64,000 nt of DNA, taken from NCBI GenBank assembly GCA_001189165.1, contig LFCO01000003.1, positions 126,984 to 190,983 of the forward strand, read 5' to 3'. The position numbers were made by a program, and so were the translations under genes. A model generated the notes under the pieces. It was not told where the DNA came from and ran no database searches. It was given only the letters and a program-made list of their open reading frames with translations. Source of the DNA: Parcubacteria bacterium C7867-005. Its GTDB lineage: Bacteria; Patescibacteriota; Minisyncoccia; Phycocordibacterales; Zambryskibacteraceae. This document shows, one piece after another, positions 1,798 to 17,723 of the stretch (the stretch's first letter is position 1; the number at the start of each line of letters is the position of its first letter).

Positions 1798-3024
1798 CTA
1801 TTTTAATTTTAACGCCCACAGAGACAAGTCTTTTTTGTTGATAAAGAAAAGATAGTCTTCGTCTGGAGACAAAAAAGGATTTATCACATCTACGTCTACT
1901 TCAAAACTTCTCCTTGGTTCAAGGAGTACATCTGATAATTGATTGGCGGGGTCAATTTTCCAAATACTATCATTGAAACTGACAGCGCCCTGATACCATG
2001 ACTCAGGTTGCTTTGGTCCGACTATTCCCTCAGGGTTTCCACAATAGATTAAATTTTCTTTTTTACTCCACACACATTTTTCTGGGATTGTTACTGGAAA
2101 GATTTTCGTGTTTTTGTTGGTATCAAAATTTTTGTGTTCCAAAACAAACTCATCACCAGAGTAATACGAATAAATTATAGATTTACCAGTTTTGTTCGGC
2201 AGGATGGTGAGCCCGTTTAGGGGCCCCAGTATCTTTGTGGCCTTACCGCTACTCTGGTTCACTGTATAAGCATAACCAGGCGTACTTGAGTCGGGCCGTG
2301 TTTGTATGAATAGGCTTGTTCCTTCTGAGGTGAATGGAGTCCATTCTGAAAATGGATAAGACCCAAGATTTTTTTGTTTGGTCCCGTCGAACTCAGAAGA
2401 GATCAGTGTTTTCGTATCCGCCAATACATAAAAGAGCTTTGTCCCACCAGAGATGTTTTTAATCTCTCCCCTCAAAGGAGTCATGGTGACAGAATGTAAG
2501 GCATCCGTAGTTGTAGATTTAGGTGCTGTTAAAGCAATGGATAGATTAGATATCTGGTCTCCTTCAAGAGATCGTAGAACAAGAGCATTTCCATCTGATC
2601 TGAAAATAGCCTCGTATATCTTGGGCAAGGTGTTGTTGGTAATCTTCATTCTCTCTTGGGTGTCGGGTTTGATGTCGTAGACATGACCAGTTGCTCGGTC
2701 TACATACCTTACAACTGTAGAGCCGTTTTTTATTATGGATATAGCCCCAGCCACTGGTTCAAGGGAGAGTTTAAAAAAATTAGGGAACGTCGCACCGGTC
2801 TGGTTATTCGAAGGATTTGTAGAAGTGGTTTTATCTCCTGGGTTACTTGGATTAAATGGTATGTCACTCCCCCCTTGACCAAACGGGAGTTCTGATTCTG
2901 TTTCTGTGTCAGATTGCTGGGGCAACTGTCGTCCAAAGATAAACCAACCTCCAACAATGAGTATTATGACGGCAAGCAGTGTAAGGAAAATTATTTTTTT
3001 ATTCATATAAGTATCTAAAAACAA
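1798..3024 (-). CDS. Hypothetical exported/membrane-anchored protein, last gene of T4SS-like cluster
   Basis: N-terminal TM/signal (KKIIFLTLLAVIILIVGGWFIF), Thr/Ser/Asn-rich linker; co-directional with the VirB4 cluster and overlaps the upstream gene by 10 nt. Confidence 0.5.
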   Translation of the reverse strand: MFLDTYMNKKIIFLTLLAVIILIVGGWFIFGRQLPQQSDTETESELPFGQGGSDIPFNPSNPGDKTTSTNPSNNQTGATFPNFFKLSLEPVAGAISIIKNGSTVVRYVDRATGHVYDIKPDTQERMKITNNTLPKIYEAIFRSDGNALVLRSLEGDQISNLSIALTAPKSTTTDALHSVTMTPLRGEIKNISGGTKLFYVLADTKTLISSEFDGTKQKNLGSYPFSEWTPFTSEGTSLFIQTRPDSSTPGYAYTVNQSSGKATKILGPLNGLTILPNKTGKSIIYSYYSGDEFVLEHKNFDTNKNTKIFPVTIPEKCVWSKKENLIYCGNPEGIVGPKQPESWYQGAVSFNDSIWKIDPANQLSDVLLEPRRSFEVDVDVINPFLSPDEDYLFFINKKDLSLWALKLK

Positions 3025-3860
3025 ACATGCCAGTGAGGAGAATTACCGGCTATTGTTTCGTTCACATAGGTTCCACCATCATATACGAATCTCTGGCTCC
3101 CAGTTGTACACCCTGTTCCTTCTGATTTGAACCCATTCTTTTCTAAGAAATTAAAAAGCTGAGAATCAAGTCTCAAATCCACGACTCTACCCCCAGGTCT
3201 GTGCTGGGTACCTTCAGAATGAAGCCAATACTCCGTTCCTCCAGTTATAGTCAGGAGGCAAGTTGGACAAGCTTCTTTCAGTCTTATTAAAGCGTTTATA
3301 ATCCTACTACTCATGCCATATACGGAAGTACAGTTTTTGTCCCCGATACTGACACAGTTGCTGTTATTAATACCAATGGTGTTAGCCCTCAGAATAGCCC
3401 TGTTTCCGTCATCCTCTGGCCATGGCTGTCCGATCTGTCCAGCTGTATTTTCTATGACCGGCGGCGCATATCTTGTGAGTCCCAGATCTATTTTCACAAA
3501 ATTTGGGTTTATGGTGTAGAGAATAGTATAAGATCCTATGGCCAAGACGAGCCCATAGATAGCGTTCTGTATCCTCTCCTTGGCATCACTTTTACCACTA
3601 ATGGCATCGGTAGACATATACTGTATACCCCCGAAAATAATCATAAGTACAGAAAGAGCACCCGCCACGCCTATCGTGAGCTTGATGATCCCAGGTATAT
3701 ACGTTGCTGCGTTTACAGCCCCGGTACCAGGCCTAGTCGTCCCAGGGAGCTCGGCCAGAGGAGTGTAGTCGTAGAAGGGTGTTGGTTCTGCAGATGCCAG
3801 ATCAGTAGAAAGACCAAACAGAACAAAGATAAACAGAGCAAGTGTTAAAAGATATCTCAT
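3015..3860 (-). CDS. TrbC/VirB2-like pilin domain fused to peptidase M15 (DD-carboxypeptidase/VanY-like) cell-wall hydrolase domain
   Basis: Signal peptide, two hydrophobic helices typical of TrbC/VirB2 pilins; C-terminal region has the M15 zinc motifs (HSEGTQHRPGGRVVDL resembles SxHxxGxAxD; terminal SPHWH). Confidence 0.55.
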   Translation of the reverse strand: MRYLLTLALFIFVLFGLSTDLASAEPTPFYDYTPLAELPGTTRPGTGAVNAATYIPGIIKLTIGVAGALSVLMIIFGGIQYMSTDAISGKSDAKERIQNAIYGLVLAIGSYTILYTINPNFVKIDLGLTRYAPPVIENTAGQIGQPWPEDDGNRAILRANTIGINNSNCVSIGDKNCTSVYGMSSRIINALIRLKEACPTCLLTITGGTEYWLHSEGTQHRPGGRVVDLRLDSQLFNFLEKNGFKSEGTGCTTGSQRFVYDGGTYVNETIAGNSPHWHVCF

Positions 3861-3894
3861 ACTTTTATTATACAGGAGACGTTTTAAAAAGCGT

Positions 3895-4284
3895 CTACGG
3901 GGTTTTTACCCCCGGAGTAATATTTGCTCCGGGCAGAGTTTTGGATTTTTCCGAAAGATATTTAGTTAGGACGAGAATGGTCCACCCAGGTAGGGCGTTC
4001 AACATGGGCACAGTTTCAATAAACGAGGTGATTGAAACGGAAATAACATTTTTCTTTTCCAACAGCTTAAGTCCTTCTAGCTTGAACCACAACAAAAGGG
4101 TTAGCAAGGCAAACACGCTGATAAAAAGGTTGACCAACCACCCAATGATTGAAAGCGGCACCAAAACAAAGGTTAAGGCGAAGAAATCATTCATGATCTC
4201 AATCCCGGCCTGGATAAGATCAAATGCCAAGGCCAGAGACCCCATCATGATCCAGGTTATGTTTGATATCTTTTCTTTCTCCAT
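3895..4284 (-). CDS. Small polytopic membrane protein (T4SS-associated, function unknown)
   Basis: 129 aa, three to four hydrophobic helices; lies between the VirB4 and TrbC-like genes on the same strand. Confidence 0.45.
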   Translation of the reverse strand: MEKEKISNITWIMMGSLALAFDLIQAGIEIMNDFFALTFVLVPLSIIGWLVNLFISVFALLTLLLWFKLEGLKLLEKKNVISVSITSFIETVPMLNALPGWTILVLTKYLSEKSKTLPGANITPGVKTP

Positions 4285-4285
4285 C

Positions 4286-6145
4286 TTATATAGACAGGTC
4301 TATTTTATTGTTCCCAGTAGGAAGACTGATTTCCTTGTCTGCCTCCAATTCTTGTTTGGCTTTCTTTTGTGCCAAGACTTGAGATGGGTCAGAGGTGATG
4401 ATCTGATCTTCTGTATACGAAGCGATGTTCTTAATAGCCACGTGCTTGAGTCCGGCAAAAAAGATTCCTTCCCCAACCCCAGATTCGAGCAACAAGAATT
4501 TTTCTTCGTCAGTCAGGTTAAATATTTTTTGGAGATTGTCTACGGTGGTTGGAGATTGTTTGAGGAGTATTTGGATAGAAGAGTTGGTGATGATTGGTAG
4601 ACCATAAGGACTCTTCAAGAAGTCCCCTACGTCCTGGGTGACCGTCGCTACACCGAGATAATACTTGCGTCCCCTCTTCACTAGACCCATAAGGAACGAT
4701 GCGGTGTCATCCGACTTCATCATCCACCAAGCTTCATCTATGACGAGTAATCTTTTTTTGAGTTCTTTTCTGATGGCATTCCAAATATAGTGCGTGACTA
4801 TATACATGGCTATAGGTTTGAGCTCGTCTTCCATATCTCGGAGTGAGAAGACTACAAACTTTTTATTTATATCTACATTTGTCGGTTTATTGATAAAGCC
4901 TGCCCACGTACCCTTGGTGTATTTGGTGAGCCTTTGAGCTAGTGATTCACCTCCTTCGAGTCCAGAAAGAACGAGTTCAAAGTCACTCATAAGAGGCGGC
5001 TCGATAGACCTGAAATCAGAGTCAGCCGTGATGTCTTTCAAGGCATACGTTTCGGTGATCGCTCGGTCGATGATGGCATCTTCTTCTGCGGTTAAACCAC
5101 CCATCATGAGTCTGAACAAGCCTACAAGGTTGATGATGTTTGATCTAAGTACATTTGCTGCAGATTCATCAGGTCCAGGTATAGGTAAATCAAAAGGATT
5201 TATATGATGTTCAGAATTTAAGGAAATCTTGAAATACCTACCTCCTGTGACTTCTGCCATGTATTCGTACTCCCTCTCTGGGTCAATGACTATCACTTCT
5301 GTCTCAAACATGAGCGTTCGTAGAATTTCTAGTTTAGTGGCATATGATTTACCCGCACCAGATTTGGCAAACATGATGGAGTTGTAGTTTTCCAAAGAGA
5401 ATCTATCGAATAAAACCAAAGAAGAGTTGTGTCTGTTTATCCCATAAAGGATGCCTTTGTCCGAAGTGAGGTCAAAAGAAGTGAATGGAAAGAGGGACGA
5501 CAGCGGCGAAGAGTTCATCTTGGAGTGGACCATTAATAGATCGTCACCAAGCGGAAGGGTGCTTTTGTACCCTTGTTCTTGTTGGAAGAGAGCTGGTTTG
5601 GCATAGACTAGCTTGGCTTCGAGTATAGATTTGATTTCTGATTCGACCTTGTCGAGTTCTAGGTCACTTTCGGCATATATGGTGATGTAAAGACCAACAT
5701 CAAATAGCTTTTCTTGCGCTTGCTGTAGCTGGTCTCGTAGATTCTCTAGATCTTGGTAGGCAACGTCGAGCATCGGATCACGAACCAACCCCTTTTCTTC
5801 CCTGCTGTGGATTTGGCTTTGCACTTCTGCTACTTTCTTTTGGAATTGCCTTAGAACTTTAGAAGTTTCGATCGGATGGACAAAGATAGAGACGTCAAAA
5901 ACTTTATCCATATTGATGATCGGAGAGAACCAGCTTTCAGAGAGGAAACGAGGGTAAGAGATAACGAAGAAGCTCCTCACAATTTTTTCTCCCAAATTTA
6001 GTTCTTTCGGAGTAACCTTGAGTGCGGAAGGAGCGATGATGTCTTTGAGTTCGAGCACGCCCGCTTGAAATATCTCTTGAGGAAGAACAGAGCTAATGTC
6101 CTTCGATCTTTCTTTGCCACCAAATAATTTATTGAATATTCCCAT
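4286..6145 (-). CDS. VirB4/TrbE-family type IV secretion ATPase (central and C-terminal ATPase part)
   Basis: Walker A (FAKSGAGKSY) and Walker B (LLVIDEAWWM); 619 aa; CagE/TrbE/VirB4-like motifs. Confidence 0.85.
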   Translation of the reverse strand: MGIFNKLFGGKERSKDISSVLPQEIFQAGVLELKDIIAPSALKVTPKELNLGEKIVRSFFVISYPRFLSESWFSPIINMDKVFDVSIFVHPIETSKVLRQFQKKVAEVQSQIHSREEKGLVRDPMLDVAYQDLENLRDQLQQAQEKLFDVGLYITIYAESDLELDKVESEIKSILEAKLVYAKPALFQQEQGYKSTLPLGDDLLMVHSKMNSSPLSSLFPFTSFDLTSDKGILYGINRHNSSLVLFDRFSLENYNSIMFAKSGAGKSYATKLEILRTLMFETEVIVIDPEREYEYMAEVTGGRYFKISLNSEHHINPFDLPIPGPDESAANVLRSNIINLVGLFRLMMGGLTAEEDAIIDRAITETYALKDITADSDFRSIEPPLMSDFELVLSGLEGGESLAQRLTKYTKGTWAGFINKPTNVDINKKFVVFSLRDMEDELKPIAMYIVTHYIWNAIRKELKKRLLVIDEAWWMMKSDDTASFLMGLVKRGRKYYLGVATVTQDVGDFLKSPYGLPIITNSSIQILLKQSPTTVDNLQKIFNLTDEEKFLLLESGVGEGIFFAGLKHVAIKNIASYTEDQIITSDPSQVLAQKKAKQELEADKEISLPTGNNKIDLSI

Positions 6146-6146
6146 A

Positions 6147-6788
6147 TTAGTTAGATTTTATTGGTTTTTCTGTATCTCCTGGATTAAAAGCTTTGTAGAA
6201 AAGTTCAATCAATTCCTCTGTGCCCAACCGCGCCACTCTTATCCCTGTACGAACGAGGCCTTGTTCGACTACCGAGAGTCTTTGTTCGAGTTGTGTCAGA
6301 TTTTCTGCAAAACTGCTTTCTTTGTGCGCGGTCTTTTCCTCAGCCGTCTTTTTGTTAAAGAAAGAACCCAGTCCAGAAGATTTACCAGAAGAAATGGCAG
6401 AAGGAGTGTATGGCACTACGATAAAAAAGTTTTTGGTCATGATATTTGTGCTCTCGGTGAAGCTTTTGATGAACTGGATGTATTCTTGTGTTTGAATTTT
6501 CATCAGATCATTAGTTTGTTTCTTTTCCTGTTCTTCTAGGAGTGCTATATAGGGTCTGATGTCGAGCTTTCTTGATTGGATCACTATCTGGACAGAGAAA
6601 TCTAAAGAGTTTAGAAAGTCTTGGAATTGTAGAAGTATGGCTTGCTTCTCATCTTCAGACTTTAAAGAAAAGTTAACCGAGGAAGCCAGCACAACTGCTC
6701 TTAAACCACCGTCTTTGAGAACAAGGACGGAATCACGAACTTCTTGTATAGGAACGAAGGCCTGGGTCGAGGTTGTACTCGGTGACAT
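6147..6788 (-). CDS. VirB4 N-terminal domain encoded as a separate ORF (split VirB4)
   Basis: 213-aa product (IQEVRDSVLVLKDGGLRAVVLASSVNFSLKSEDEKQAI...) resembles the N-terminal domain of VirB4/TrbE; stop TAA, then 1 nt, then the ATG of the downstream ATPase ORF. Confidence 0.6.
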   Translation of the reverse strand: MSPSTTSTQAFVPIQEVRDSVLVLKDGGLRAVVLASSVNFSLKSEDEKQAILLQFQDFLNSLDFSVQIVIQSRKLDIRPYIALLEEQEKKQTNDLMKIQTQEYIQFIKSFTESTNIMTKNFFIVVPYTPSAISSGKSSGLGSFFNKKTAEEKTAHKESSFAENLTQLEQRLSVVEQGLVRTGIRVARLGTEELIELFYKAFNPGDTEKPIKSN

Positions 6789-6795
6789 GTTTATA

Positions 6796-7218
6796 TTATA
6801 GCGTATCTTCCCTGTTTTGATTGTTGTTCTGCTTCACATCTAGAGCAAAACTTAGTTCTTTTAGTTTTGATCCAGATAATTTAGGCACATAAACTTGAGT
6901 CTGAGTCTGTCCGGGAACCTCCTTTCTGATAATTTGTTTGTCTTCTTTTTTCCAAACATAGAGCTTGCTTCCTAAGGTGTATTGAAAGAATGCCTCTACG
7001 ACTTCTACAAACGGTTTCGAGTTCACTTTGTAGAAGGCAAGGGCTACAGCAAATACCACCACAGGGACGGATATGAGTATGGCTATAAATTTGGGCAAAA
7101 GGGTAAATAAAACAACGGACACGCCTACTCCGCCAGCCAGGTAGATGAACTGTTTGAAAGTTAGGGGGCCAAAGATCTTATCCTCGATTTCTATGAATTG
7201 GGGTACTTGGAATCTCAT
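6796..7218 (-). CDS. PrgI-family (VirB3-like) membrane protein
   Basis: MRFQVPQFIEIEDKIFGPLTFKQFIYLAGG followed by two TM helices is the hallmark N-terminus of PrgI/VirB3-like proteins of Gram-positive-type T4SS; directly upstream of VirB4. Confidence 0.6.
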   Translation of the reverse strand: MRFQVPQFIEIEDKIFGPLTFKQFIYLAGGVGVSVVLFTLLPKFIAILISVPVVVFAVALAFYKVNSKPFVEVVEAFFQYTLGSKLYVWKKEDKQIIRKEVPGQTQTQVYVPKLSGSKLKELSFALDVKQNNNQNREDTL

Positions 7219-7235
7219 GCTTACTCTAGCTTACA

Positions 7236-7754
7236 CTAATTTAATGGTTCTCTGTACGGATCTATCCCCCCAGTGTATCTAGGCACGCCTATCGTGGAGG
7301 CCGGCCTCGGTGCCGGTTCTTGTGGTGTTTGCATTGTAGGTATTGTGGGCGGTATAGGTGTTGGTTCTCCCTCTTTTCCACTCGGCAAGAGTATCTCTTC
7401 AGGCTCTGTCCCCAGGAGTTTTGGTACGGGTTTATTTTTTTCTAAATCAATTGCTTTCTTGATTACCACAGCAAAAACTCTTTGATCAATCTCTTTTATT
7501 ACATTGATTATTGTCTGCTCATCCAAGTTTTCAAATCCCTCACTGAGATTTTCAGGATAGTCTTCCAAATTCTCAAATCCATACAGAGCAAGCATTGTCT
7601 CTGTTTCCAGTGTGCTAACTTGATCCAAGTTTAGATTGTTTTGTACACCAACATCTTCTACAAGTTTTTTCCAATCAATAGTATTAATTGCTTCCTGCAT
7701 AAATATAGGAAGATTTTCAAATTTTTCTTTTATTATTTTGTCAGTATCGTTCAT
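7236..7754 (-). CDS. Hypothetical acidic/Pro-rich protein of the T4SS-like cluster (start moved to internal Met to avoid overlap)
   Basis: ORF 7236-7856 overlaps the upstream gene; Met at 7754 (MNDTDKIIKEK...) gives a 5-nt intergenic gap; C-terminal Pro-rich tail. Confidence 0.45.
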   Translation of the reverse strand: MNDTDKIIKEKFENLPIFMQEAINTIDWKKLVEDVGVQNNLNLDQVSTLETETMLALYGFENLEDYPENLSEGFENLDEQTIINVIKEIDQRVFAVVIKKAIDLEKNKPVPKLLGTEPEEILLPSGKEGEPTPIPPTIPTMQTPQEPAPRPASTIGVPRYTGGIDPYREPLN

Positions 7755-7758
7755 ATAT

Positions 7759-9870
7759 TTATTCTGCGGAATATTTTTTTGGTCCAGGGTCCGTGGCTCC
7801 ACCAGTAGGTTCGTTGGTCTTTGGTTCCCCTGCTTTTGTTTCTGTTCCTGTATCATCTCCTGCTTCTTTTGCTTGTTTGGCGATTTCTTCCGCTATTTTC
7901 TCTGCAGGCTTTTTGTCTTTGATACTCTTTCGTATTGTCTCCGCAGCCAGTGTATATTCTTTCTTGGTTGGACCGAATAAGCCGATTCTCTTTATGTCTG
8001 GTATCAAATACCCCAATGGGCTGTCAGGGTCACCTATTCTGGTAGTGAGGAATTTTGCGTAAGCTTCTTTTCTAATTGCACCAACCCCCTTAATTTCCTT
8101 TGGCTTCCAGCCAAATGTCTCCTCTGCAATCTTTTCAGCCTCTTTCTGGCTTTTGCCAGCCCTGATCAAATCATCGATATTTGTCTTCCTTAGCTTTTCA
8201 AGTTCGGCCTCTGCTTCTTTCTGGTTCTTGCCTGAATCTTTTAGTTTCTTGATTTCTCTCAACTGAACTCCCTCTCTTCTAGAAATTTCTGCTTTCGCCT
8301 GTTTTTCAGTTAGTGTCCATCCAGATTCTTCTCTTATTTCACTAACCTTTCTTTTGCGTATCTCGTCTTCGTTTGCACCGCTTAGCTCATCTACCTTTCT
8401 TTGTGCGTCTGCGATTATCTCAGGATCATCAGTTTTCTTTGCCTCATCTAATTTTCTCTTGGCCTCAATAACTGAAAGCTCTGAAGGTTTGAGACTGTCG
8501 GCATATTTCTTTTCTGTCTCGATTCTATCCTTGAGATCTTTTGCATAACCACCACTTTGACCCTTTCCTGCCCCTAAGTCTTTCCCTATTCCTGTAGCTC
8601 TTATATCAAAGCTACTCTTAGATAGCTTGCTTGCGGCCGCAAGGTTGAGACGTGCCCTGATACTTCCTTCAGCCGCTCTATCTTGTAGCTCCTTGTTTCC
8701 TTCTAAGGAAGCACCGTATCTACCTATGATCCCCCGACCCGCTCTTCCTGCAAGGCCCACCGTCGCTCCGCCTGCAAGGCCCATGGCCCAACTGCCCATT
8801 TTACCAACTACACCACCTGCCTTAGATGAGATTGATTTGGCAGTAGTAAGGGCGGCAACGATGAGGGCGATGGCGATAAAGAAATTGATGATCAAACCCA
8901 TGCCGCCCGGGGAAGGCGCGCCGTTCACAGCTGCACTTTGAGTGAGTCCTTGCCTAAGAGTCTCTGATCCATTTACTCCGATGAAGCTCGGGTCATTGAT
9001 GATGACAATCACCACCCATGCGAGGAACATAAAAACTGGAGCGAAGGTTAACTGACTCATCAAAGCATCTTTCCATTGCTTCGCTTGGTCCTTTAATCCT
9101 GGTATCACTAGAGCGAGGAAAGCTATAGGTGAAAACGCCATCACCAAAATCAAAATGACGTATCGCATCAAAAAGAAGAAAGTAATAGCCAAGAACACCC
9201 AGGTGGTGATTAGTATGAATATAGAGCCCATTATTCCTACTAGAGTTATCTCTCCCGCGTTTATAGAATCAGTACCGTCTGTCTTGTATATAGTTTGTAT
9301 TTTAAGTGGAGCGACAAAGCTGTTGGAGAGCCCCATAGAAAAATTATCACCCTGTGCAGCATCCGGGGAGATGGCTCCGTAGAAAGTAAGGGTGACTATA
9401 TTCGAAGCATCTATCAGTACCTTTGTCCCAAACAAACTGAAATTGATAAACAAAGCGATGATGACCAAGTTTTTTATTGTTTCTTTGGCGAGTGACCTAT
9501 CTCCTAATATAAGTTTTATGGATGCATACAGGAGAATAAATATGAAAAACATATTGGCGATGTCCCTTACTGTCTCCCAGATCATCTTTATAGAAGTAAG
9601 ATCACCTATGTGTTGTTTCATGTCCACGACTGTATAGTCGATAACATAGTTCAGGAGAATACCTGCGAGCCCTAAGAGGAAAGACAATATCTTTAAAACA
9701 GCATTCGATGCATTTGCCATACAATCCTCGAGCTCAATACCTTCTGATATGGAAATGCACGCTGCATCTGTCGTGTTAGTGGGTACGAATAGTAGAATCA
9801 AAAACAAAGCGATTCCTAAAATAGCGAAAGTTTTTTTATCTATTTTCCTAAAGTGCTTAAGCCAAAGCAT
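7759..9870 (-). CDS. VirB6/TrbL-like polytopic membrane protein with long coiled-coil/charged C-terminal extension
   Basis: 703 aa, more than six TM helices in the N-terminal half, Gly/Ala-rich segment, then Lys/Glu-rich coiled coil; position and topology fit a T4SS VirB6-like channel component. Confidence 0.6.
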   Translation of the reverse strand: MLWLKHFRKIDKKTFAILGIALFLILLFVPTNTTDAACISISEGIELEDCMANASNAVLKILSFLLGLAGILLNYVIDYTVVDMKQHIGDLTSIKMIWETVRDIANMFFIFILLYASIKLILGDRSLAKETIKNLVIIALFINFSLFGTKVLIDASNIVTLTFYGAISPDAAQGDNFSMGLSNSFVAPLKIQTIYKTDGTDSINAGEITLVGIMGSIFILITTWVFLAITFFFLMRYVILILVMAFSPIAFLALVIPGLKDQAKQWKDALMSQLTFAPVFMFLAWVVIVIINDPSFIGVNGSETLRQGLTQSAAVNGAPSPGGMGLIINFFIAIALIVAALTTAKSISSKAGGVVGKMGSWAMGLAGGATVGLAGRAGRGIIGRYGASLEGNKELQDRAAEGSIRARLNLAAASKLSKSSFDIRATGIGKDLGAGKGQSGGYAKDLKDRIETEKKYADSLKPSELSVIEAKRKLDEAKKTDDPEIIADAQRKVDELSGANEDEIRKRKVSEIREESGWTLTEKQAKAEISRREGVQLREIKKLKDSGKNQKEAEAELEKLRKTNIDDLIRAGKSQKEAEKIAEETFGWKPKEIKGVGAIRKEAYAKFLTTRIGDPDSPLGYLIPDIKRIGLFGPTKKEYTLAAETIRKSIKDKKPAEKIAEEIAKQAKEAGDDTGTETKAGEPKTNEPTGGATDPGPKKYSAE

Positions 9871-9879
9871 TTGGTTTTA

Positions 9880-10908
9880 TTATATCCCAGCTTCATTCAA
9901 AATTTCTCCAAACTTGAGCCTGAATGATTTGCTCGCAGACTGTAAATACTTACTACTATGATCAATTTTTAAGGTAACTTGTGATACTCCAGAACCACTA
10001 CCCTCTTGTCTAAAAGTAGCACTCGGGCCGACAAAGTTGTTGCCCGAAGAAACGTTGTTTATGAGCCACTTATAGCCTAGGTCCGATGCCAAGGATCTGG
10101 TGCCAAAATAATAAGGGGAAGCAGTAAAGGTAACTTCTTTATCTTTGAGTTCGAACTCACCGCTAACTTCTTTGTTGTAGAGGATCCCATAGAGTGGATG
10201 GTTTTCATACACGAGGACCTTTGGGGCTGTTCCCTTAAGAGTGATCTCTTTCTCTCCAACAATAGAGTTGTCTTCCGTCCTCACATTAACAGAAATCACC
10301 TCATCTCTAAGGTAGATAGAGTTTTCAAGACCAAAAGAACTTTTCCCATATCCAGAAGCCGTGCTTACAACCTGGCCATTTCTACTCCATCTATAGACAA
10401 GTGAAGTTCCTGGTATCTCTCTACCACCTCTGTCTATAAATTTAGTTAGAGCAAAGACAGTAACCTTGTTTTGATAACTGTATAGAGGCTTGCCTCTATA
10501 GAATGGAGGTACGTATGAATCACTTTGCCAGACGAGGTCGATTTCTGTTGGGATAATGTTAATTGTCTTCTTAAATCTATTTTTATTCGACGGTGTGATA
10601 AATACATCAACCTTATCTACATTACCGACGCCCCTAGTAGTAAATTCAAAAAACTTTAGACCAACCCCTTTTGTCATGGCTCTATTATTTAACACCCACT
10701 CAATGAGCGACGAATCTATGTCGAAAGAAGCGTCAGTCATTTCTAGTCTTGTTTCGGTGTTCCCCCCTGGGTACAAGGGCGTCACCTCAACTGTTGTGGT
10801 GTCCGCTTGATCGATGTTTATCCCCGAGAATTGGGCGTGAGAAAGTAACGGGGCCATGAACAGCCCAAGTCCTAGCAACAATATTTTTTTCTGTTTAGTG
10901 TCCAACAT
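9880..10908 (-). CDS. Secreted hypothetical protein (signal peptide), T4SS-like cluster
   Basis: N-terminal signal LLLGLGLFMAPLLSHA; beta-rich composition; co-operonic. Confidence 0.5.
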   Translation of the reverse strand: MLDTKQKKILLLGLGLFMAPLLSHAQFSGINIDQADTTTVEVTPLYPGGNTETRLEMTDASFDIDSSLIEWVLNNRAMTKGVGLKFFEFTTRGVGNVDKVDVFITPSNKNRFKKTINIIPTEIDLVWQSDSYVPPFYRGKPLYSYQNKVTVFALTKFIDRGGREIPGTSLVYRWSRNGQVVSTASGYGKSSFGLENSIYLRDEVISVNVRTEDNSIVGEKEITLKGTAPKVLVYENHPLYGILYNKEVSGEFELKDKEVTFTASPYYFGTRSLASDLGYKWLINNVSSGNNFVGPSATFRQEGSGSGVSQVTLKIDHSSKYLQSASKSFRLKFGEILNEAGI

Positions 10909-12511
10909 ATATAGACTTACAGGCTTTTTTATCTACAGGGTCCACAAACCTATCAAGATCTACCACAGAGATATGAGCTTCTTTTGTGCCGGGGAAATAC
11001 CTCTCATCGTCTTCGACGTACTGCCTGGTTATTGTCACCTGAGTGATGCCAGTGACCGGGTCTCTCTCGAATGTTTGGTTGAACGCATTGTATCTTGGCC
11101 AAACACCTATACTTGTCCTTGGTAACTGGCTTTCCGTACCACCCCATAGTGCATTTACCATAATCTCTGCCCCATCTACTCTTACAGGGAATAATTCGAA
11201 TTCTCCTGAGCCGCCGCTGATATTTGCTATCCATTTAACGTCTTCATTGCGTTTGTATCTTGGGAATTCGGCGTAGCATTCTACGACAAGAGGTGGGAAT
11301 TTTGACACAGTCACCGAAGGGTCACATATAACAGTAGAGGTTTCGGGTACTCCGGGTATGATTGTTTCTAATCCACTCTCGTCTACGGAGATGATGTTTC
11401 TGGTTCTGGTTACTCTCACTCTCGCGTCTTTTACTCCTTCGGTTGTATATATAATCTCTGCAGTATTCTGTGTACCAGAAAGTCCTCCAGCACCAGACCA
11501 TTCGTAGCTTATAGAGTCCTCTGGGTTGAATCCGATCACCTGAGCAGACCACTTGACTGGATTAAGGACGAGAGTGTTACTTACATCAGCACTACAGGTT
11601 ATAGGACTTGCTGTTGCGCCTGCAGATTGATTACCAGACTGATTTCCCGCTGGAGACCTACCAGCCCCAGCAAGGTTTTTCAAAGTTTTTTGAGCAAGTA
11701 GACCGATGCCAGCACTTACTATCTCATCAAACTCATCCGCGAGTTCTAGTTGTCTAAAACCCGTACCGACGACATCAGTAAGCTGCTCATTGATAAACGA
11801 TCCAGGGGTCTTTATATTTCCCTTCGCATCTTTAATAGAAATAAACCCCCTACCCCAATCTGCGAGCATTTTTTCTATACCTAATTTTTTCTGGACTTCT
11901 TTGTCTATACTGTTTGTCAGCTGGATAAGATTACCATCAGGGTTGTTGGCATCATTTTGTGTCATGCTAAGCCATCCTTGCCACCCGCCTTGATTAAAAT
12001 CATCGAGGAATCCTTCAAGGTTGTTTGTTACCCCCATGAAAGTACACTGCGGGTTATAGTTCACACCATCCTTACCGTTATCTGTTAGATACTTTCTCGC
12101 CAAGTTAACTTTCACTTGAACACGAAACGGAGCACAGAGTCCATTGAGCTCAGTGTCGTTTATGATATTCCCAGCGATAACATCTCCAGCATCTTTAAAA
12201 TATTGTTCTAGGTTTGTGATGAATTTTGGCTGTCCGTCCGTGCCACCACTTATCCAAGCTACAATGTCATTTGTTGCCATTCTTAGTAAGATCTTCAAAG
12301 AGAGGGTGCCCAATGCATCCCAGCTTGTGCCGGGTATTGGTATTCCGAAAAATGGGATTTGCGAAACCTCTTTTTTTGTTTGAGGCACGTTGTTAACAGG
12401 TATTTGCAGTAGAGTACCCTGCGCCATGACTAACTTGGGAGTCATCAAAATAGGGCCGAGGAATGAGGCGATGAGTATAGCAGAGATTAATTTTTTGTTT
12501 GTAGATTTCAT
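10895..12511 (-). CDS. Secreted hypothetical protein (signal peptide), T4SS-like cluster
   Basis: Signal peptide ISAILIASFLGPILMTPKLVMAQG; 538 aa; overlaps neighbours by a few nt (operonic). Confidence 0.5.
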   Translation of the reverse strand: MKSTNKKLISAILIASFLGPILMTPKLVMAQGTLLQIPVNNVPQTKKEVSQIPFFGIPIPGTSWDALGTLSLKILLRMATNDIVAWISGGTDGQPKFITNLEQYFKDAGDVIAGNIINDTELNGLCAPFRVQVKVNLARKYLTDNGKDGVNYNPQCTFMGVTNNLEGFLDDFNQGGWQGWLSMTQNDANNPDGNLIQLTNSIDKEVQKKLGIEKMLADWGRGFISIKDAKGNIKTPGSFINEQLTDVVGTGFRQLELADEFDEIVSAGIGLLAQKTLKNLAGAGRSPAGNQSGNQSAGATASPITCSADVSNTLVLNPVKWSAQVIGFNPEDSISYEWSGAGGLSGTQNTAEIIYTTEGVKDARVRVTRTRNIISVDESGLETIIPGVPETSTVICDPSVTVSKFPPLVVECYAEFPRYKRNEDVKWIANISGGSGEFELFPVRVDGAEIMVNALWGGTESQLPRTSIGVWPRYNAFNQTFERDPVTGITQVTITRQYVEDDERYFPGTKEAHISVVDLDRFVDPVDKKACKSIYVGH

Positions 12512-13335
12512 GTACCTTGCCAGAATAATCTAGCCTCTGTGTTTGCGAAAATTATACCATTTGCATTGAAGTAAGTCAGAAAGTTAGAGAGGATTTCTGA
12601 CTCTCTACTACCGATTTCTGATTGGGCTTGAAAGGCGAGCATGGCTTTTAGAGGGTCAGTGCCTATGAAGGACATATCGTTTGTGTTGTTTGCTGAGTCA
12701 ACATAAACATTTATTAGATTAAGATGATTGACCACAGCACCTCTAGGTGCGCTTAGGTTTTTTAACTCCTTGGCGAAATTTAAATACAGACCTGAAATAT
12801 TTTTGAATTTGTTTTGAAGCTCTTCGCTTTCTATGTTGTCTGCATTTATGTACTCGATAGGGTTCTTAAGGTACTCATCGGTGTATCTTTTTTTGATAAG
12901 AGCTACATTGGTTGCATACGCGATAATCAGGTCAGTGTTTGAATCTTCGAAAGTGACTATATCCTTAGTTGAAAAATACGGTATTTTTTTCTGTGCCTCT
13001 ATGTTCTCTACCGTAGCCTCAGCAACAGCATCTATCCCCTCTTGGCTGATTGAACCATTTTCTTTGAGAGTCAGATAGCCCGAAAATAATCTCCTGCCGA
13101 ATTTTTGAGTCTCAGTTTCTCCTAGATTTATAACAGCATCTTCTGCGTTTGCCTCAGCTTCATTCAGAATCTCCTCTTCTGTGGGCATACGATCGATGTT
13201 GTTTAGGTAGTTTTGTCCGTCTACTATAGATAACTTCGCCTCATTTTTTTTGAAATAAGCAGATAAGGAAGACCCCCCAATGAACAAAAGGGCCAACATG
13301 ATCGAGATAATGATTGAAGGAGAAGGTTTTTTCAA
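12508..13335 (-). CDS. N-terminally membrane-anchored hypothetical protein, first gene of T4SS-like cluster
   Basis: TM helix IIISIMLALLFIGG then soluble domain; 4-nt overlap with the next gene. Confidence 0.5.
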   Translation of the reverse strand: MKKPSPSIIISIMLALLFIGGSSLSAYFKKNEAKLSIVDGQNYLNNIDRMPTEEEILNEAEANAEDAVINLGETETQKFGRRLFSGYLTLKENGSISQEGIDAVAEATVENIEAQKKIPYFSTKDIVTFEDSNTDLIIAYATNVALIKKRYTDEYLKNPIEYINADNIESEELQNKFKNISGLYLNFAKELKNLSAPRGAVVNHLNLINVYVDSANNTNDMSFIGTDPLKAMLAFQAQSEIGSRESEILSNFLTYFNANGIIFANTEARLFWQGT

Positions 13336-13408: not shown

Positions 13409-14362
13409 ATGAGATTCATCATTTTTCTATTTTTTCTGTCTATACCGATATCTTTTTCTAACGCACAGTCAGGAGACATCTTTATTCAGAGCGATCTTTC
13501 TCTGGGCTCTGTCGGTGAAGATGTTAGACTCTTGCAAATTGCTTTAAACAAAGACGACCGGACCAGGGTTTCATCGACTGGACCAGGTTCGAGGGGAGAA
13601 GAGACCAATTTTTTTGGCCCTAAAACTGAGAGAGCCGTCATCCTTTTTCAAGAACTTCACAAGGAGGCTATTCTCAGCCCACTCAAACTAAGCGCCGGAA
13701 CAGGTTTTGTCGGCGAAAATACCAGAAAAATCCTTAATACAACCACCCCAATACTGACCGAGTTAGAAAAAAGTGAGGAAATGCCAGTCCTATTCATTAA
13801 ACAGGCTCCTTTTCTCTACAACATTAACCCATATCAGCTTAAACCCGGTGATGTAGCCACTATTTCTGGTAGAGGCTTTTTGTCTTCAGGAAATGAGGTT
13901 TTTTTAGGTAGTAAATCTCTGGGTGAGTATTCTAGCAACGGAACGTCCATAAGCGTCCAGATACCAGAAAACACGCCCTATGGGTCTCATAAAATAAGAG
14001 TAAAAAACAGAAATGGTGAGACAGAAGACAGCCAAACAAGCATTGGTGCCTTGGTTGTAGAAAACCCTAGTGCCCCACCAAAAATAGTAAAAACGGAACC
14101 AGAATCTCTCTTGAACGAGCCTGAAATAGTATTATTTGGTGAAAATTTTGCTGAACTTAACGATGTTTATTCGAGTGTGGGTGAAATCCTGGGCCTGACC
14201 ATAAGCCAGGGCAGCACAGTCAGGATTCCCCTATCGATGCTTACTCGGCTCGATGACCTCAAAAAGGATATTAAGCTGGATGGTTTTGAGTTTCCAATTT
14301 ACTTCTTTGTTAAAAACGAAAACGGGATAAGTGAGCCATTCATGGTCTTAATAAAGTTATAA
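13409..14362 (+). CDS. Secreted protein with peptidoglycan-binding (PG_binding_1-like) and IPT/TIG-like domains
   Basis: Signal peptide; VRLLQIALN...FFGPKTERAVILFQ matches the PG-binding domain-1 pattern; later a beta-sandwich-like segment (KPGDVATISGRGF...). Confidence 0.6.
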   Translation: MRFIIFLFFLSIPISFSNAQSGDIFIQSDLSLGSVGEDVRLLQIALNKDDRTRVSSTGPGSRGEETNFFGPKTERAVILFQELHKEAILSPLKLSAGTGFVGENTRKILNTTTPILTELEKSEEMPVLFIKQAPFLYNINPYQLKPGDVATISGRGFLSSGNEVFLGSKSLGEYSSNGTSISVQIPENTPYGSHKIRVKNRNGETEDSQTSIGALVVENPSAPPKIVKTEPESLLNEPEIVLFGENFAELNDVYSSVGEILGLTISQGSTVRIPLSMLTRLDDLKKDIKLDGFEFPIYFFVKNENGISEPFMVLIKL

Positions 14363-14369: not shown

Positions 14370-14726
14370 ATGAAATTCTTTTCTTTTATACTTATCACTT
14401 CTTTGTTTTTTATCCCTTCCATATCTTTCGCTCTGGGCTTACCGTTTGGGGGTCGAGTAGCGGTGACTGTACCGTGTACGTGTTCTTTGCCTGGGACTTT
14501 GCATATATCTTTTGCTCCTTTGTATTTGTCTGCTGTACCAATCGTTGGTTCCGTTGTTTATTCACCGACAACGATTCTGTATCAATACTTTGCTATAGGT
14601 GTACCTACTACATGGGAGCTTGGTGAATATTTACCTGGAGTTCAAGAATGTTTTATTTATGTTGGCGTGGCTTGTGTACCACTTCCCTCTGTCGGAGTTA
14701 TGACTAGAGTTGGTACTAGTCTTTAG
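14370..14726 (+). CDS. Small secreted Cys-containing hypothetical protein
   Basis: Signal peptide, 118 aa, several Cys; co-directional with the upstream gene. Confidence 0.4.
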   Translation: MKFFSFILITSLFFIPSISFALGLPFGGRVAVTVPCTCSLPGTLHISFAPLYLSAVPIVGSVVYSPTTILYQYFAIGVPTTWELGEYLPGVQECFIYVGVACVPLPSVGVMTRVGTSL

Positions 14727-15508
14727 ATTCCCGCTACAATTTTTTTCCACATACCCATAGGAACATCTTCCGCTCGGGTGTTATCATCTATCTCCAGTTT
14801 TTCAAAGACAGATTTAATTTTTTCTTTATTTACTAAAGTACTCAGGTTCGAAGAGAGTTTTTTACGTTTTGATTTAAAACCAGCGTGAAGGATGTCAAAA
14901 AATTTTTCTTCATTAAATTCGGCAAAGAAATTTTTAGAAATATTTTGAACGGACAACACTGCGGAATCAACACTTGGCACAGGGAAAAATGATCCGGCTT
15001 TGACAGTTTTAATATAAACTGGTTCGCCATAGGCTTTGACTGAAAGAGACAGGACGCTTTCTTTTTGGTTTTTGGCTACGATACGTTCGGCGACTTCTTT
15101 TTGAACCATAAGAACCATCTGTTTTGGTTGGAAAGATGAACTTAAAAATTGGCGGATGATTTGTCCAGTGATGTTATAAGGTATATTCGCTATCAGTTTG
15201 TAATCCAGGACTTCAAATCTGCTGGCATCAAATTCTAAGATGTCACCGTGGATAAGGTCGAGTTTGTTCATCTTAATTTCTTTCTTGAAACTTTCCTTTA
15301 AGAGTTCGAACAGGTCATCGTCTTTCTCCACAGCCACCACTTTTTCTGCGATCCTTAAAAGTTTTTTAGTAAGCATTCCTTTACCTGGTCCGATTTCTAA
15401 TACGGTATCATCGCTAATGACATCTCCTGCATCTATGATTAAATCCACGACGCTCTCCGCTGTTAAGAAATTTTGACCCAGTGATTTTTTTGGATACATG
15501 TTAGTCAA
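14723..15508 (-). CDS. rsmA: 16S rRNA (adenine1518/1519-N6)-dimethyltransferase RsmA/KsgA
   Basis: KKSLGQNFL motif, SAM-binding LEIGPGKGMLT, NIPYNI motif. Confidence 0.9.
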   Translation of the reverse strand: MTNMYPKKSLGQNFLTAESVVDLIIDAGDVISDDTVLEIGPGKGMLTKKLLRIAEKVVAVEKDDDLFELLKESFKKEIKMNKLDLIHGDILEFDASRFEVLDYKLIANIPYNITGQIIRQFLSSSFQPKQMVLMVQKEVAERIVAKNQKESVLSLSVKAYGEPVYIKTVKAGSFFPVPSVDSAVLSVQNISKNFFAEFNEEKFFDILHAGFKSKRKKLSSNLSTLVNKEKIKSVFEKLEIDDNTRAEDVPMGMWKKIVAGI

Positions 15509-17465: not shown

Positions 17466-17723
17466 AGATCTCGACACTATAACATAGTGGGCTTGTCCAT
17501 TGACCCACCGGTCCCCTTGGGGGTACAATTAAGGCTTCCCAGTACAGATTTGACCTTGGGCGATGCCCCTATACAGAGCGAAAGCAAGACAGATTGAACA
17601 GTTTAACCCAATTGTATTTCTATAAAAAAAGGTCGAAAAAGCTTTGCTAGATATAGCTTTTTTACCAAAAGAGTTTCAAATAGTGTTCAGATTCCCCAAA
17701 AGATTGTCATCCTAGGGGTATTC

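What the first reader, a model, noticed from the sequence alone, without database searches (positions are those of the whole stretch)
1798..13335. Eleven-gene type IV secretion-like (conjugation-derived) apparatus typical of CPR/Patescibacteria, with no relaxase or coupling protein
A single minus-strand operon, many genes overlapping by a few nt, encodes: VirB4 ATPase in two ORFs, a PrgI/VirB3-like protein, a VirB6-like polytopic protein with a long coiled-coil tail, a TrbC/VirB2-like pilin fused to an M15 hydrolase, a small membrane protein, and four exported proteins of unknown function. There is no VirD4, relaxase, VirB11 or oriT-like feature in the window. That suggests a non-conjugative role, such as DNA uptake or host-cell interaction in an episymbiont. 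The four exported proteins (1798-3024, 9880-10908, 10895-12511, 12508-13335) are uncharacterised and are the likely lineage-specific structural or adhesin parts.
Basis: partly seen in the sequence, partly recalled or inferred. Interest (0 to 1): 0.6.

Follow-up and report, generated by a model that had tools for sequence, protein, structure and literature searches.

The report
Chromosomal Patescibacteria type IV secretion cluster
This is the chromosomal, non-conjugative type IV secretion gene cluster already described for ultrasmall Patescibacteria (CPR) bacteria; its one less-described feature is that its only pilin gene is fused to a probable cell-wall-cutting enzyme domain that is swapped for other modules in close relatives.

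Summary
Eleven tightly packed minus-strand genes (1798-13335) encode a split VirB4 ATPase (TrsD-like plus VirB4), PrgI/VirB3, an 8-TM VirB6-like protein with a charged tail, one VirB2-type pilin with a C-terminal globular domain, two small proteins, and four exported proteins. The window has no relaxase, coupling protein, adjacent integrase, tRNA or att repeats. The cluster lies between rnpA-yidC and ksgA-uvrD. This order is kept in all 43 related Parcubacteria/Zambryskibacteria loci with full flanks, where VirB4 is 78-91% identical.

This is the Patescibacteria-clade T4SS published in 2023-2025. Those papers already report no relaxase, TrsD beside VirB4, VirB2-like pilins and a position near the origin. 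Its function is unknown, and it is essential in one cultured Saccharibacterium.

New detail found here:
- The "M15 hydrolase" domain matches no M15 HMM. It is a confidently modelled Hedgehog/LAS-like zinc-peptidase-type fold with a conserved H..D..HxH motif.
- In longer relatives it sits between the pilin and an SLT lytic transglycosylase, in the same gene slot.
- Across 65 orthologous pilins the C-terminal module varies (two LAS-like types, SLT, HExxH, coiled coil, Ig).
- The exported proteins look like a beta-propeller, an Ig-like repeat protein and an adhesin-like protein with variable tips.

Interest is modest.

The parts
12508..13335 (-). g11: 275-aa bitopic protein (N-terminal TM anchor at aa 8-26, acidic extracytoplasmic part). 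First gene of the operon; function unknown.
   Evidence: ORF; hydropathy. Homologues found in 24 loci at the same position. No Pfam, NCBIfam or PDB-profile match. No similarity to PrgL, PrgD or TrsH by hhalign.
10895..12511 (-). g10: 538-aa secreted protein. It has a conserved Cys-containing N-domain (about aa 30-285) and a variable C-terminal part; adhesin-like.
   Evidence: Signal peptide ...VMA|QG. tblastn coverage is confined to the N half (median 0.43). Orthologues carry Bact_surface_Ig-like and F5/8 type C (discoidin) domains in the variable part. No PDB profile hit.
9880..10908 (-). g9: 342-aa secreted protein, probably tandem Ig-like beta-sandwich domains. In relatives this gene lies between g3 and the pilin gene, so it has moved in this genome.
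   Evidence: Signal peptide ...SHA|QF. Found in 74 loci. Sits after VirB4/g3 in all 43 full loci. Weak profile hit to the Ig-like phage Hoc protein, E 0.004.
7759..9870 (-). g8: 703-aa 'extended VirB6'-like polytopic membrane protein (8 hydrophobic segments) with a K/E/A-rich tail at aa 431-703.
   Evidence: Hydropathy and composition. hhalign to pSK41 TrsL (TrbL family) E 1.6e-3 and to PrgH E 0.017. NCBIfam CD3337/EF1877 E 0.005. One orthologue hits Pfam TrbL at E 0.0017. The tail matches only coiled-coil proteins.
7236..7754 (-). g7: about 172-aa acidic cytoplasmic protein with a Pro-rich C-terminus; function unknown. The longest ORF extends to 7856 and overlaps g8.
   Evidence: tblastn alignments begin at aa 33-35 of the long ORF. 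No TM segment. No family hit.
6796..7218 (-). g6: PrgI / VirB3-like two-TM protein.
   Evidence: Pfam PrgI 47 bits against a cutoff of 27. hhalign to pCF10 PrgI E 1e-3. Found in 76 loci at 52% median identity.
6147..6788 (-). g5: TrsD-like protein, equivalent to the N-terminal segment of a full-length VirB4.
   Evidence: NCBIfam: CD1110 VirB4 model positions 5-121 (E 4e-5), TrsD (E 7e-6), VirB4_plasma positions 102-233 (E 2e-12). Found in 78 loci at 63% identity with constant length. The syntenic orthologue in L083 carries PF26593 TraC-like.
4286..6145 (-). g4: VirB4 ATPase (central and C-terminal domains, Walker A SGAGKS, Walker B LLVIDEAW).
   Evidence: NF045971 at 372 bits, above the 325 cutoff. 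Pfam P-loop_TraG 91 bits. PDB 4AG5 E 2e-39. 78-91% identical in 80 genomes.
3895..4284 (-). g3: 129-aa small polytopic membrane protein; function unknown.
   Evidence: Hydropathy. Detected by tblastn in 22 loci directly after VirB4. No family hit.
3015..3860 (-). g2: the only VirB2/TrbC-type pilin in the window. Layout: signal peptide, helical hairpin at aa 51-117, a flexible linker, then a Cys-rich Hedgehog/LAS-like zinc-peptidase-type domain at aa 140-281 (H220, D228, E268, H276, H278).
   Evidence: PF18895 in 74/74 homologues. It is the only pilin hit in the window. AF2 models: pLDDT 86.8 for the full protein and 95.8 for the domain. Fold hits are to Hedgehog N-domains, phage lysins and Peptidase M15A. 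Invariant residues. Relatives have the architecture pilin + this domain + SLT.
1798..3006 (-). g1: about 402-aa membrane-anchored protein with a low-complexity linker and a probable TolB/PD40-like beta-propeller. Last gene of the operon, convergent with yidC.
   Evidence: TM anchor at aa 5-23. Found in 61 loci. Profile hit to TolB E 0.005. A few orthologues hit PD40, DPPIV_N or DUF5050.

Best explanation
**What it is.** This is the vertically inherited, origin-proximal chromosomal type IV secretion system of the Patescibacteria VirB4 clade, which derives from monoderm MPF_FATA conjugation machinery. Here it occurs in a Zambryskibacteria-like Parcubacterium.

**Proposed assembly (inferred).**
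- VirB4, with its detached TrsD-like N-module, is docked by PrgI/VirB3 to an extended VirB6 channel in the single membrane.
- The sole VirB2-type protein inserts by its helical hairpin. It presents an extracellular Hedgehog/LAS-type zinc peptidase domain that cuts peptidoglycan peptides. This supplies the VirB1-like wall-opening activity.
- The same protein may also form the pilus-like tube seen in related organisms.
- The secreted Ig-like protein, the adhesin-like protein and the beta-propeller protein form the wall-spanning or host-contacting parts.

**Proposed function (inferred).** The machine is not used for conjugation. It moves macromolecules between the epibiont and its host cell, either effectors going out or host material coming in.

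**Shown versus inferred.** Shown here: gene content, homology, topology, synteny, conservation, and the absence of DNA-processing genes in the window and in the 80 related loci (each VirB4 match plus up to 10 kb on either side). Inferred: how the parts assemble, the hydrolase activity and its target, and the direction and nature of the cargo.
For: **Core identity.** VirB4 scores above the curated cutoff. TrsD-like and PrgI proteins are present.

**Conservation and context.**
- The pilin protein is 100% identical to a Parcubacteria C7867-005 protein.
- 569 genome stretches encode relatives. The best 80 have 78-91% VirB4 identity and are all Patescibacteria MAGs.
- All 11 genes recur, in the order uvrD-ksgA-[cluster]-yidC-rnpA, in all 43 loci with full flanks. 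In L083 dnaA-dnaN follow directly.
- Within the same set of loci, median identity is 81% for VirB4 but 49-55% for YidC, KsgA and UvrD.
- GC content is uniform with the flanks.

**No mobility signature.** No relaxase, T4CP, adjacent integrase, tRNA or att repeats were found.

**Hydrolase reading of the pilin fusion.**
- The domain model has pLDDT 95.8.
- The H-x7-D...E...H-x-H set and six Cys residues are invariant or at least 90% conserved.
- Fold hits are dominated by Hedgehog N-domains and phage lysin / M15A proteins.
- The same domain lies between the pilin and an SLT lytic transglycosylase in longer relatives occupying the same gene slot.
- One orthologue has SLT in place of this domain.

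**Literature.** The T4SS is essential for epibiotic growth of Southlakia independently of comEC, and its function is unknown. Tubular structures reach toward the host in a cultured Minisyncoccota (= Patescibacteria) parasite.
Against: - No experiment exists on this lineage. Function is extrapolated from Saccharibacteria, a different class.
- The VirB6 assignment is weak (E about 1e-3).
- No VirB8-like component was found.
- Foldseek E-values for the hydrolase domain are not significant against PDB (best 0.1). They are marginal against viral models (1.5e-3). No M15 HMM matches.
- A 150-aa head on every pilin subunit is unprecedented for VirB2 filaments. The protein may be only a membrane-anchored hydrolase and not a pilus subunit.
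- T4CP homologues are reported elsewhere in many Patescibacteria genomes. The rest of this genome could not be searched.
Confidence: 0.8

Rival explanations
1. An ordinary integrated conjugative element (ICE) or its recent remnant. Its relaxase and coupling protein would lie outside the window.
For: The VirB4, TrsD and PrgI components are homologous to those of Gram-positive conjugative plasmids such as pSK41 and pCF10. A tyrosine recombinase is present at 22600-23541.
Against: - The cluster lies between rnpA-yidC and ksgA-uvrD in all 43 loci with full flanks, drawn from a species-representative genome set. Its GC content matches the flanks.
- There is no tRNA, no att repeats and no T4CP or relaxase in the window or in the 80 loci.
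- The recombinase is 9 kb away, separated by housekeeping genes, and has the Xer-like domain set.
- Within the same loci VirB4 is more conserved than the housekeeping neighbours.
Confidence: 0.03
2. A dedicated DNA (or RNA) import machine, analogous to Helicobacter ComB or the archaeal Ced system. It would feed nucleotides to an organism that cannot make them.
For: - There is no relaxase or T4CP, so export of processed DNA is unlikely.
- VirB4 has a weak match to the CedB model.
- Reviews raise nucleic-acid uptake as a candidate role.
- A 2026 preprint links host-RNA feeding with T4SS-like tubes.
Against: - The window already encodes a separate competence set: PilB, PilC, a prepilin, ComEC, ComM and RecJ.
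- In Southlakia comEC is dispensable while the T4SS remains essential. A ComEC-coupled uptake route is therefore excluded there.
- No nucleic-acid-binding component was recognised among the 11 proteins.
Confidence: 0.2
3. The pilin-fused domain is not an enzyme. It would be an adhesin or ligand-like head (Hedgehog-type domains also act as binding modules). Alternatively it is an enzyme that acts only on the bacterium's own wall during assembly, like VirB1, with no role at the host.
For: - Fold similarity is to Hedgehog signalling domains, which are not known peptidases.
- Other orthologues carry non-enzymatic coiled-coil or Ig modules in the same position.
- Gram-positive VirB1-like proteins act on the donor's own wall (established knowledge).
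Against: - The full zinc and catalytic residue set is invariant across 74 homologues.
- The domain is fused with an SLT muramidase in relatives.
- It matches phage lysin-type proteins.
- Rapid module swapping among genomes with over 80% identical VirB4 fits a host-facing part better than a housekeeping assembly factor.
Confidence: 0.3

Closest known systems
Patescibacteria-clade T4SS (Wang et al. 2023, Cell, PMC10633639, Southlakia SEML1_0006-0019; Quinonero-Coronel et al. 2025, Microb Genom, PMC12102498)
   Same: - A chromosomal cluster with VirB4, an adjacent TrsD-like protein, PrgI/VirB3, VirB6 and a VirB2-like pilin.
- No relaxase or T4CP nearby.
- In Paceibacteria it lies next to rnpA, ksgA, rpmH and dnaA, as it does here.
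   Different: - Saccharibacteria carry arrays of 2-11 small pilins with separate peptidase and lysozyme genes. This lineage has a single pilin gene, fused to a hydrolase-type domain.
- That C-terminal module is replaced by unrelated modules in close relatives.
- The papers read here do not mention such a fusion: no 'M15' or 'hedgehog', and 'fusion'/'fused' appear only in reference to VirB3-VirB4.
Gram-positive MPF_FATA conjugation systems of the pGO1/pSK41 subclass (TrsB-TrsC-TrsD-TrsE...TrsG, TrsK, TrsL) and pCF10 Prg/Pcf
   Same: - A split TrsD + TrsE(VirB4) arrangement, a VirB3-like PrgI/TrsC, and a TrbL/VirB6-like membrane protein.
- A small CagC/VirB2-like membrane protein (TrsB).
- A membrane-anchored two-domain wall hydrolase (TrsG or PrgK: SLT + CHAP).
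   Different: - No T4CP (TrsK/PcfC), relaxase, topoisomerase, SSB or VirB8-like PrgL/TrsH equivalent was detected.
- The hydrolase is anchored by the pilin hairpin. It uses a LAS-type rather than a CHAP peptidase.
- The cluster is chromosomal and syntenic across all 43 related loci with full flanks.
LAS / Hedgehog-fold zinc peptidases (MEROPS clan MD: M15 VanX/VanY-type DD-peptidases, phage L-Ala-D-Glu endolysins; Hedgehog N-terminal domain)
   Same: - An alpha/beta sandwich with an H-x(6-7)-D ... H-x-H zinc motif.
- The motif segment TEYWLH..H.PGG.VVDL aligns with the ShhN segment [24 protein letters not shown].
- Top fold hits are Hedgehog N-domains and phage lysin / M15A models.
   Different: - No Pfam or NCBIfam M15 or HH_signal model matches any of 74 homologues.
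- There are six conserved cysteines and one extra residue in the H...D spacer.
- Structural E-values are weak (0.0015-0.5) and TM-scores are about 0.4-0.5.

Membership tests
Type IV secretion system (VirB4-defined), MPF_FATA / Patescibacteria clade | A VirB4-family ATPase with intact Walker motifs | tested here: met
   NF045971 at 372 bits against a cutoff of 325. PDB 4AG5 at E 2e-39. SGAGKS and LLVIDEAW are present in the sequence.
Type IV secretion system (VirB4-defined), MPF_FATA / Patescibacteria clade | A VirB3/PrgI-like partner adjacent to VirB4 | tested here: met
   Pfam PrgI at 47 bits against a cutoff of 27. The gene lies two genes upstream of VirB4.
Type IV secretion system (VirB4-defined), MPF_FATA / Patescibacteria clade | A separate TrsD-like protein next to VirB4 (pGO1 subclass; the commonest component in Patescibacteria) | tested here: met
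   It matches the N-terminal 120 positions of VirB4 models and TrsD NF041427 (E 7e-6, below that model's full-length cutoff). The syntenic orthologue carries PF26593 TraC-like. The split is conserved in 76 of 78 loci.
Type IV secretion system (VirB4-defined), MPF_FATA / Patescibacteria clade | A VirB6/TrbL-type polytopic channel protein | tested here: inconclusive
   There are 8 hydrophobic segments. Sequence links are only weak: TrsL E 1.6e-3, CD3337 E 0.005, and one orthologue hitting TrbL at E 0.0017.
Type IV secretion system (VirB4-defined), MPF_FATA / Patescibacteria clade | VirB4 branches inside the monophyletic Patescibacteria clade | not tested
   No tree was built. Indirect evidence: the 80 best genomic relatives (78-91% identity) are all Patescibacteria MAGs.
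Conjugative T4SS / ICE | A relaxase and a type IV coupling protein (VirD4/TcpA) | tested here: not met
   No such Pfam family among the window ORFs scanned with Pfam (all ORFs of at least 250 aa between 15.5 and 54.8 kb, the eleven cluster genes and their flanking genes, and ten smaller ORFs). No tblastn hit to TrsK, PcfC, Nes, PcfG or MobV in the window or in the 80 loci. The rest of the genome could not be searched.
Conjugative T4SS / ICE | An integration module: adjacent integrase, tRNA or other att site, flanking direct repeats | tested here: not met
   The nearest tRNA is at 31.8 kb. Direct repeats are only short chance matches. The Xer-like recombinase is 9 kb away, beyond housekeeping genes.
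VirB2/TrbC pilin (PF18895 / PF04956) | A signal peptide followed by a two-helix hydrophobic hairpin that matches the pilin HMM | tested here: met
   The window protein scores 24.2 bits, just under the 26.6 cutoff. All 74 homologues match PF18895 (best E 1e-10) and 15 also match TrbC. AF2 gives helices at 51-83 and 87-117.
VirB2/TrbC pilin (PF18895 / PF04956) | Polymerises into an extracellular pilus | not testable with these tools
   This needs microscopy or biochemistry. The 142-aa C-terminal head is atypical for VirB2 pilins.
MEROPS M15 / LAS zinc peptidases | A match to a curated M15-family sequence model | tested here: not met
   No Peptidase_M15* or HH_signal hit in the window protein or in 74 homologues at E up to 0.05. 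No PDB sequence-profile hit.
MEROPS M15 / LAS zinc peptidases | Zinc ligands and catalytic residues: H-x(n)-D ... (E) ... H-x-H | tested here: met
   D228, E268, H276 and H278 are invariant, and H220 is conserved in at least 90% of homologues.
MEROPS M15 / LAS zinc peptidases | The Hedgehog / DD-peptidase fold | tested here: inconclusive

The most novel reading that the evidence does not exclude
In Zambryskibacteria-type Parcubacteria the single VirB2 pilin may be a modular 'warhead' carrier. On this reading every subunit, or a processed product of it, presents an exchangeable extracellular head: a LAS peptidase alone or with an SLT muramidase, an HExxH protease, a coiled coil, or an Ig domain. 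That head breaches or grips the host cell wall. Swapping heads between genomes whose VirB4 is over 80% identical would then set host range. That would make this a polymorphic, pilus-borne wall-attacking device rather than a conventional VirB1 assembly factor.
Probability: 0.2. Interest if true: 0.7.

Novelty: new member of a known kind. Interest (0 to 1): 0.35.

Why it matters
Recent reviews say the role of the Patescibacteria T4SS is completely unknown, although it is essential for epibiotic growth in the one species tested. This window adds nothing to the system-level picture, which is already published.

It does point to concrete, testable parts in the large Paceibacteria/Parcubacteria branch:
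- a single pilin that carries a confidently folded zinc-peptidase-like head, found in 774 cluster representatives;
- the same head joined to a lytic transglycosylase in relatives;
- a secreted protein whose tip domains vary like an adhesin's.

These are natural candidates for the host-contact and wall-breaching steps, and for determinants of host range.

Tried and rejected
- **Full-length g2 model.** The fold search was dominated by spurious histidine-kinase hits caused by the helical hairpin. The domain was re-modelled on its own.
- **C-domain sequence searches.** A profile search against PDB gave nothing. hhalign against a recalled ShhN sequence aligned only the zinc motif, at E 0.07.
- **g10 homologue searches.** The word-index searches returned only 8 and 3 proteins.
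- **PDB profile searches for g8, g10 and g11.** These gave only coiled-coil or chance hits.
- **Comparison with pSK41 and pCF10.** hhalign of all families against every pSK41 Trs and pCF10 Prg/Pcf protein recovered only the expected weak pairs (PrgI, TrsL/PrgH, TrsD, TrsB). It found no VirB8-like (PrgL, PrgD, TrsH), PrgF or TrsJ counterpart.
- **Second pilin.** The small proteins g3 and 14370-14726 were tested as extra pilins and rejected.
- **ICE reading.** Rejected.
- **Pseudogene reading of the VirB4 split.** Rejected because the split is conserved in 76 of 78 loci.
- **Promoter and terminator scan.** It found no more sites than expected from shuffles. The single-operon claim therefore rests on gene spacing only.

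Full report
**1. Observation**

The window carries eleven back-to-back minus-strand ORFs from 13335 down to 1798. Gaps or overlaps between them are 1-34 nt. Two starts are probably later than the longest ORF. Homologue alignments to the 206-aa ORF (7236-7856) begin at residues 33-35, which places its start at 7754, just after the stop of the upstream gene. The last gene most likely starts at MNKK (3006). GC content across the cluster (0.41-0.43) matches that of the flanks.

**2. Core components**

- **g4 (4286-6145) is a VirB4.** It passes the curated cutoff of the NCBIfam 'VirB4-like conjugal transfer ATPase, CD1110 family' model (372 bits against 325), matching profile positions 184-736. It hits Pfam P-loop_TraG and AAA_10. 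It matches the solved VirB4 C-domain 4AG5 at E 2e-39.
- **g5 (6147-6788) is the detached N-terminal module.** It matches positions 5-121 of the same VirB4 model, positions 102-233 of the mycoplasma VirB4 model, and the TrsD model. The two ORFs together therefore cover a full-length VirB4, as in TrsD/TrsE of pGO1/pSK41. The junction reads TAA-t-ATG. A 205-222 aa ORF is present in 76 of 78 related loci, so this is a real two-gene arrangement and not a frameshift.
- **g6 (6796-7218) is PrgI/VirB3** (47 bits).
- **g8 (7759-9870) is VirB6-like.** It has eight hydrophobic segments and a K/E/A-rich 270-aa tail. Its similarity to TrbL/VirB6-type proteins is only weak. I accept 'VirB6-like' on topology, position and these weak links. 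It fits the 'extended VirB6' type described in the 2025 review.

**3. Context and relatives**

The pilin protein is 100% identical to a protein of 'Parcubacteria bacterium C7867-005'. A scan of one genome per species found 569 stretches encoding relatives of this VirB4. The best 80, all Patescibacteria/Parcubacteria/Zambryskibacteria MAGs, are 78-91% identical.

All eleven genes recur in these loci. In all 43 loci with full flanks the order is uvrD-ksgA-[g11 g10 g8 g7 g6 g5 g4 g3 g9 g2 g1]-yidC-rnpA. In one further locus dnaA-dnaN follow rnpA directly. The only difference in this window is that g9 sits between g10 and g8 instead of after g3.

Within the same set of loci, median identity is 81% for VirB4 but 49-55% for YidC, KsgA and UvrD. 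One caveat applies: the loci were chosen by VirB4 similarity.

The rest of the window is housekeeping: NusA, trigger factor, ClpP, RNase Y, CCA enzyme, TIM, PGK, RecJ and EF-G. It also holds a separate type IV pilus and competence set: PilB, PilC, a prepilin, ComEC and ComM.

The window shows none of the following:
- a relaxase or coupling protein;
- a tRNA within 18 kb of the cluster;
- att-like flanking repeats.

The one tyrosine recombinase is Xer-like and lies 9 kb away. The ICE reading is therefore rejected.

**4. What is already known**

This is the system described by Wang et al. 2023 and Quinonero-Coronel et al. 2025, and reviewed in late 2025 (PMC12857230). Those papers report the following:
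- a monophyletic Patescibacteria VirB4 clade nested in MPF_FATA;
- TrsD as the commonest accessory protein beside VirB4, along with PrgI, VirB6 and VirB2-like pilins;
- almost no relaxases;
- a location near dnaA, rnpA, ksgA and rpmH in Paceibacteria;
- essentiality for epibiotic growth in Southlakia even when comEC is deleted;
- a function called 'completely unknown'.

A 2026 preprint shows tubular structures toward the host and feeding on host RNA in a cultured relative.

**5. The pilin fusion**

g2 is the only pilin-type gene in the 64-kb window. It has four parts:
- a signal peptide;
- a VirB2-type helical hairpin, which matches PF18895 in all 74 full-length homologues;
- a low-confidence linker;
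- a 142-aa Cys-rich C-terminal domain.

No M15 or other Pfam or NCBIfam model matches this C-terminal domain in any homologue. A profile search of PDB sequences also found nothing.

Modelled alone, the domain folds with pLDDT 95.8 and pTM 0.90. Foldseek against PDB returns Hedgehog N-terminal domains for about 30 of the top 50 hits, but at weak scores (best E 0.1, TM about 0.4). Against viral models the best hits are a GH19-containing lysin (E 1.5e-3), a 'Sonic hedgehog'-annotated phage protein (E 2.8e-3), a 'Peptidase M15A' protein (E 0.03) and a tape-measure protein.

The invariant residues D228, E268, H276 and H278, together with H220, form the LAS-type motif H-x7-D...E...H-x-H. This motif aligns with the zinc site of Sonic hedgehog.

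The domain occurs in 774 50%-identity cluster representatives. Longer members have the architecture pilin - this domain - SLT lytic transglycosylase. One such 905-aa protein occupies exactly the g2 slot of a syntenic cluster.

I therefore read the domain as a peptidoglycan peptidase of the Hedgehog/LAS fold. It would be the peptidase half of a VirB1-like hydrolase anchored by the pilin hairpin. Enzymatic activity is inferred and has not been shown.

**6. Module swapping**

The 65 orthologous pilin genes in the related loci encode proteins of 140-555 aa. Nearly all carry C-terminal extensions of 70-437 aa, which fall into many unrelated groups:
- 14 of this type;
- 12 of a second type that also ends in an H..D..HxH pattern;
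- 5 long helical ones;
- about 25 singletons, including one with SLT, one with an HExxH motif and one with an Ig domain.

These differences occur among genomes whose VirB4 proteins are more than 78% identical. g10 shows a similar pattern. Its N-domain is conserved, and its C-terminal part is variable and carries Ig-like or discoidin domains in some orthologues. This conserved-base, variable-tip pattern suggests host-facing parts.

**7. Other proteins**

- **g1** has a membrane anchor and a probable TolB/PD40-type beta-propeller.
- **g9** is secreted and weakly Ig-like.
- **g11, g7 and g3** gave no informative match.
- No VirB8-like protein was recognised by profile comparison with PrgL, PrgD or TrsH.

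**8. Mechanism and verdict**

The most likely mechanism is as follows. A VirB4/TrsD motor is docked by PrgI to an extended VirB6 channel. The pilin-anchored hydrolase opens the wall, and may itself polymerise. The secreted Ig-like protein, the adhesin-like protein and the propeller protein build the outer part. The machine serves host interaction or macromolecule exchange, not conjugation.

Identity and non-mobility are well supported. Assembly, enzymatic target and cargo are inferred.

On novelty, the system is known. This locus is a further member, with a component-level variant (a single pilin fused to exchangeable heads) that the papers read here do not describe. Interest is modest overall.

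Noticed in passing
window 9880-10908 versus L002 12205-13212 and 42 other loci: The g9 gene (Ig-like secreted protein) lies between g10 and VirB6 in this genome. In all 43 related loci with full flanks it lies downstream of VirB4/g3, just before the pilin gene. This is a local gene transposition within the operon.
   Followed up: partly
window 4286-6145 compared with 1061-1795, 14723-15508 and 15501-17528: Within the same set of related loci, median identity is 81% for VirB4 and 63% for TrsD-like, but only 49-55% for the flanking housekeeping proteins YidC, KsgA and UvrD. This points to unusually strong constraint on the ATPase. One caveat: the loci were selected by VirB4 similarity.
   Followed up: partly
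window 13409-14362 (+) and 14370-14726 (+): Two genes are divergently transcribed next to the cluster. One is a secreted protein with PG_binding_1 and IPT/TIG domains. The other is a 118-aa hydrophobic Cys-containing protein. They are conserved between ksgA and g11 in 16-17 related loci and may be accessory wall-associated parts. The small protein is not pilin-like.
   Followed up: partly
window 34203-42085: This is a type IV pilus cluster. It holds PilB (36610-38364, T2SSE + MshEN), PilC (38366-39580) and a prepilin with an N_methyl motif (39586-40026). It also holds three ORFs with no family match: 621 aa at 34717-36582, 201 aa at 40032-40637 and 483 aa at 40634-42085.
   Followed up: partly
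window 47501-48982, 45353-47023, 18665-20203: ComEC, RecJ and ComM are encoded in the same window. The organism therefore has a separate competence and DNA-uptake toolkit alongside the T4SS.
   Followed up: no
window 17724-18668: A secreted 2xLysM + Peptidase_M23 protein lies 4.4 kb from the cluster. The 2025 paper notes that VirB1-like candidates in Patescibacteria often carry M23 and LysM domains.
   Followed up: no
window about 22200-22600: Gene orientation switches here, from mostly minus-strand genes on the left to plus-strand genes on the right. AT skew changes sign at about 22-24 kb, next to a Xer-like tyrosine recombinase at 22600-23541. This may be a replication landmark. No dnaA was found among the window ORFs scanned with Pfam.
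   Followed up: no
window 44356-45321 (-): A 321-aa protein has a Lamin Tail Domain match just under the cutoff (34.1 bits against 34.3). It may be a surface or DNA-binding protein. It is unrelated to the finding.
   Followed up: no
window 31863-32383: A cluster of four tRNA genes (Arg-TCG, Gly-TCC, Pro-TGG and Gly-GCC) is the only tRNA locus in the window.
   Followed up: no
L081 25115-25432 (pSK41 trsB): RefSeq annotates the Gram-positive plasmid pSK41 TrsB as a 'CagC family type IV secretion system protein', that is, VirB2-like. It lies directly upstream of TrsC-TrsD-TrsE. A pilin-like hairpin protein may therefore predate the Patescibacteria system rather than being co-opted from diderm systems. 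Similarity to g2 is only weak: hhalign E 0.01 with the whole-protein profile and E 0.057 with the pilin-part profile.
   Followed up: partly
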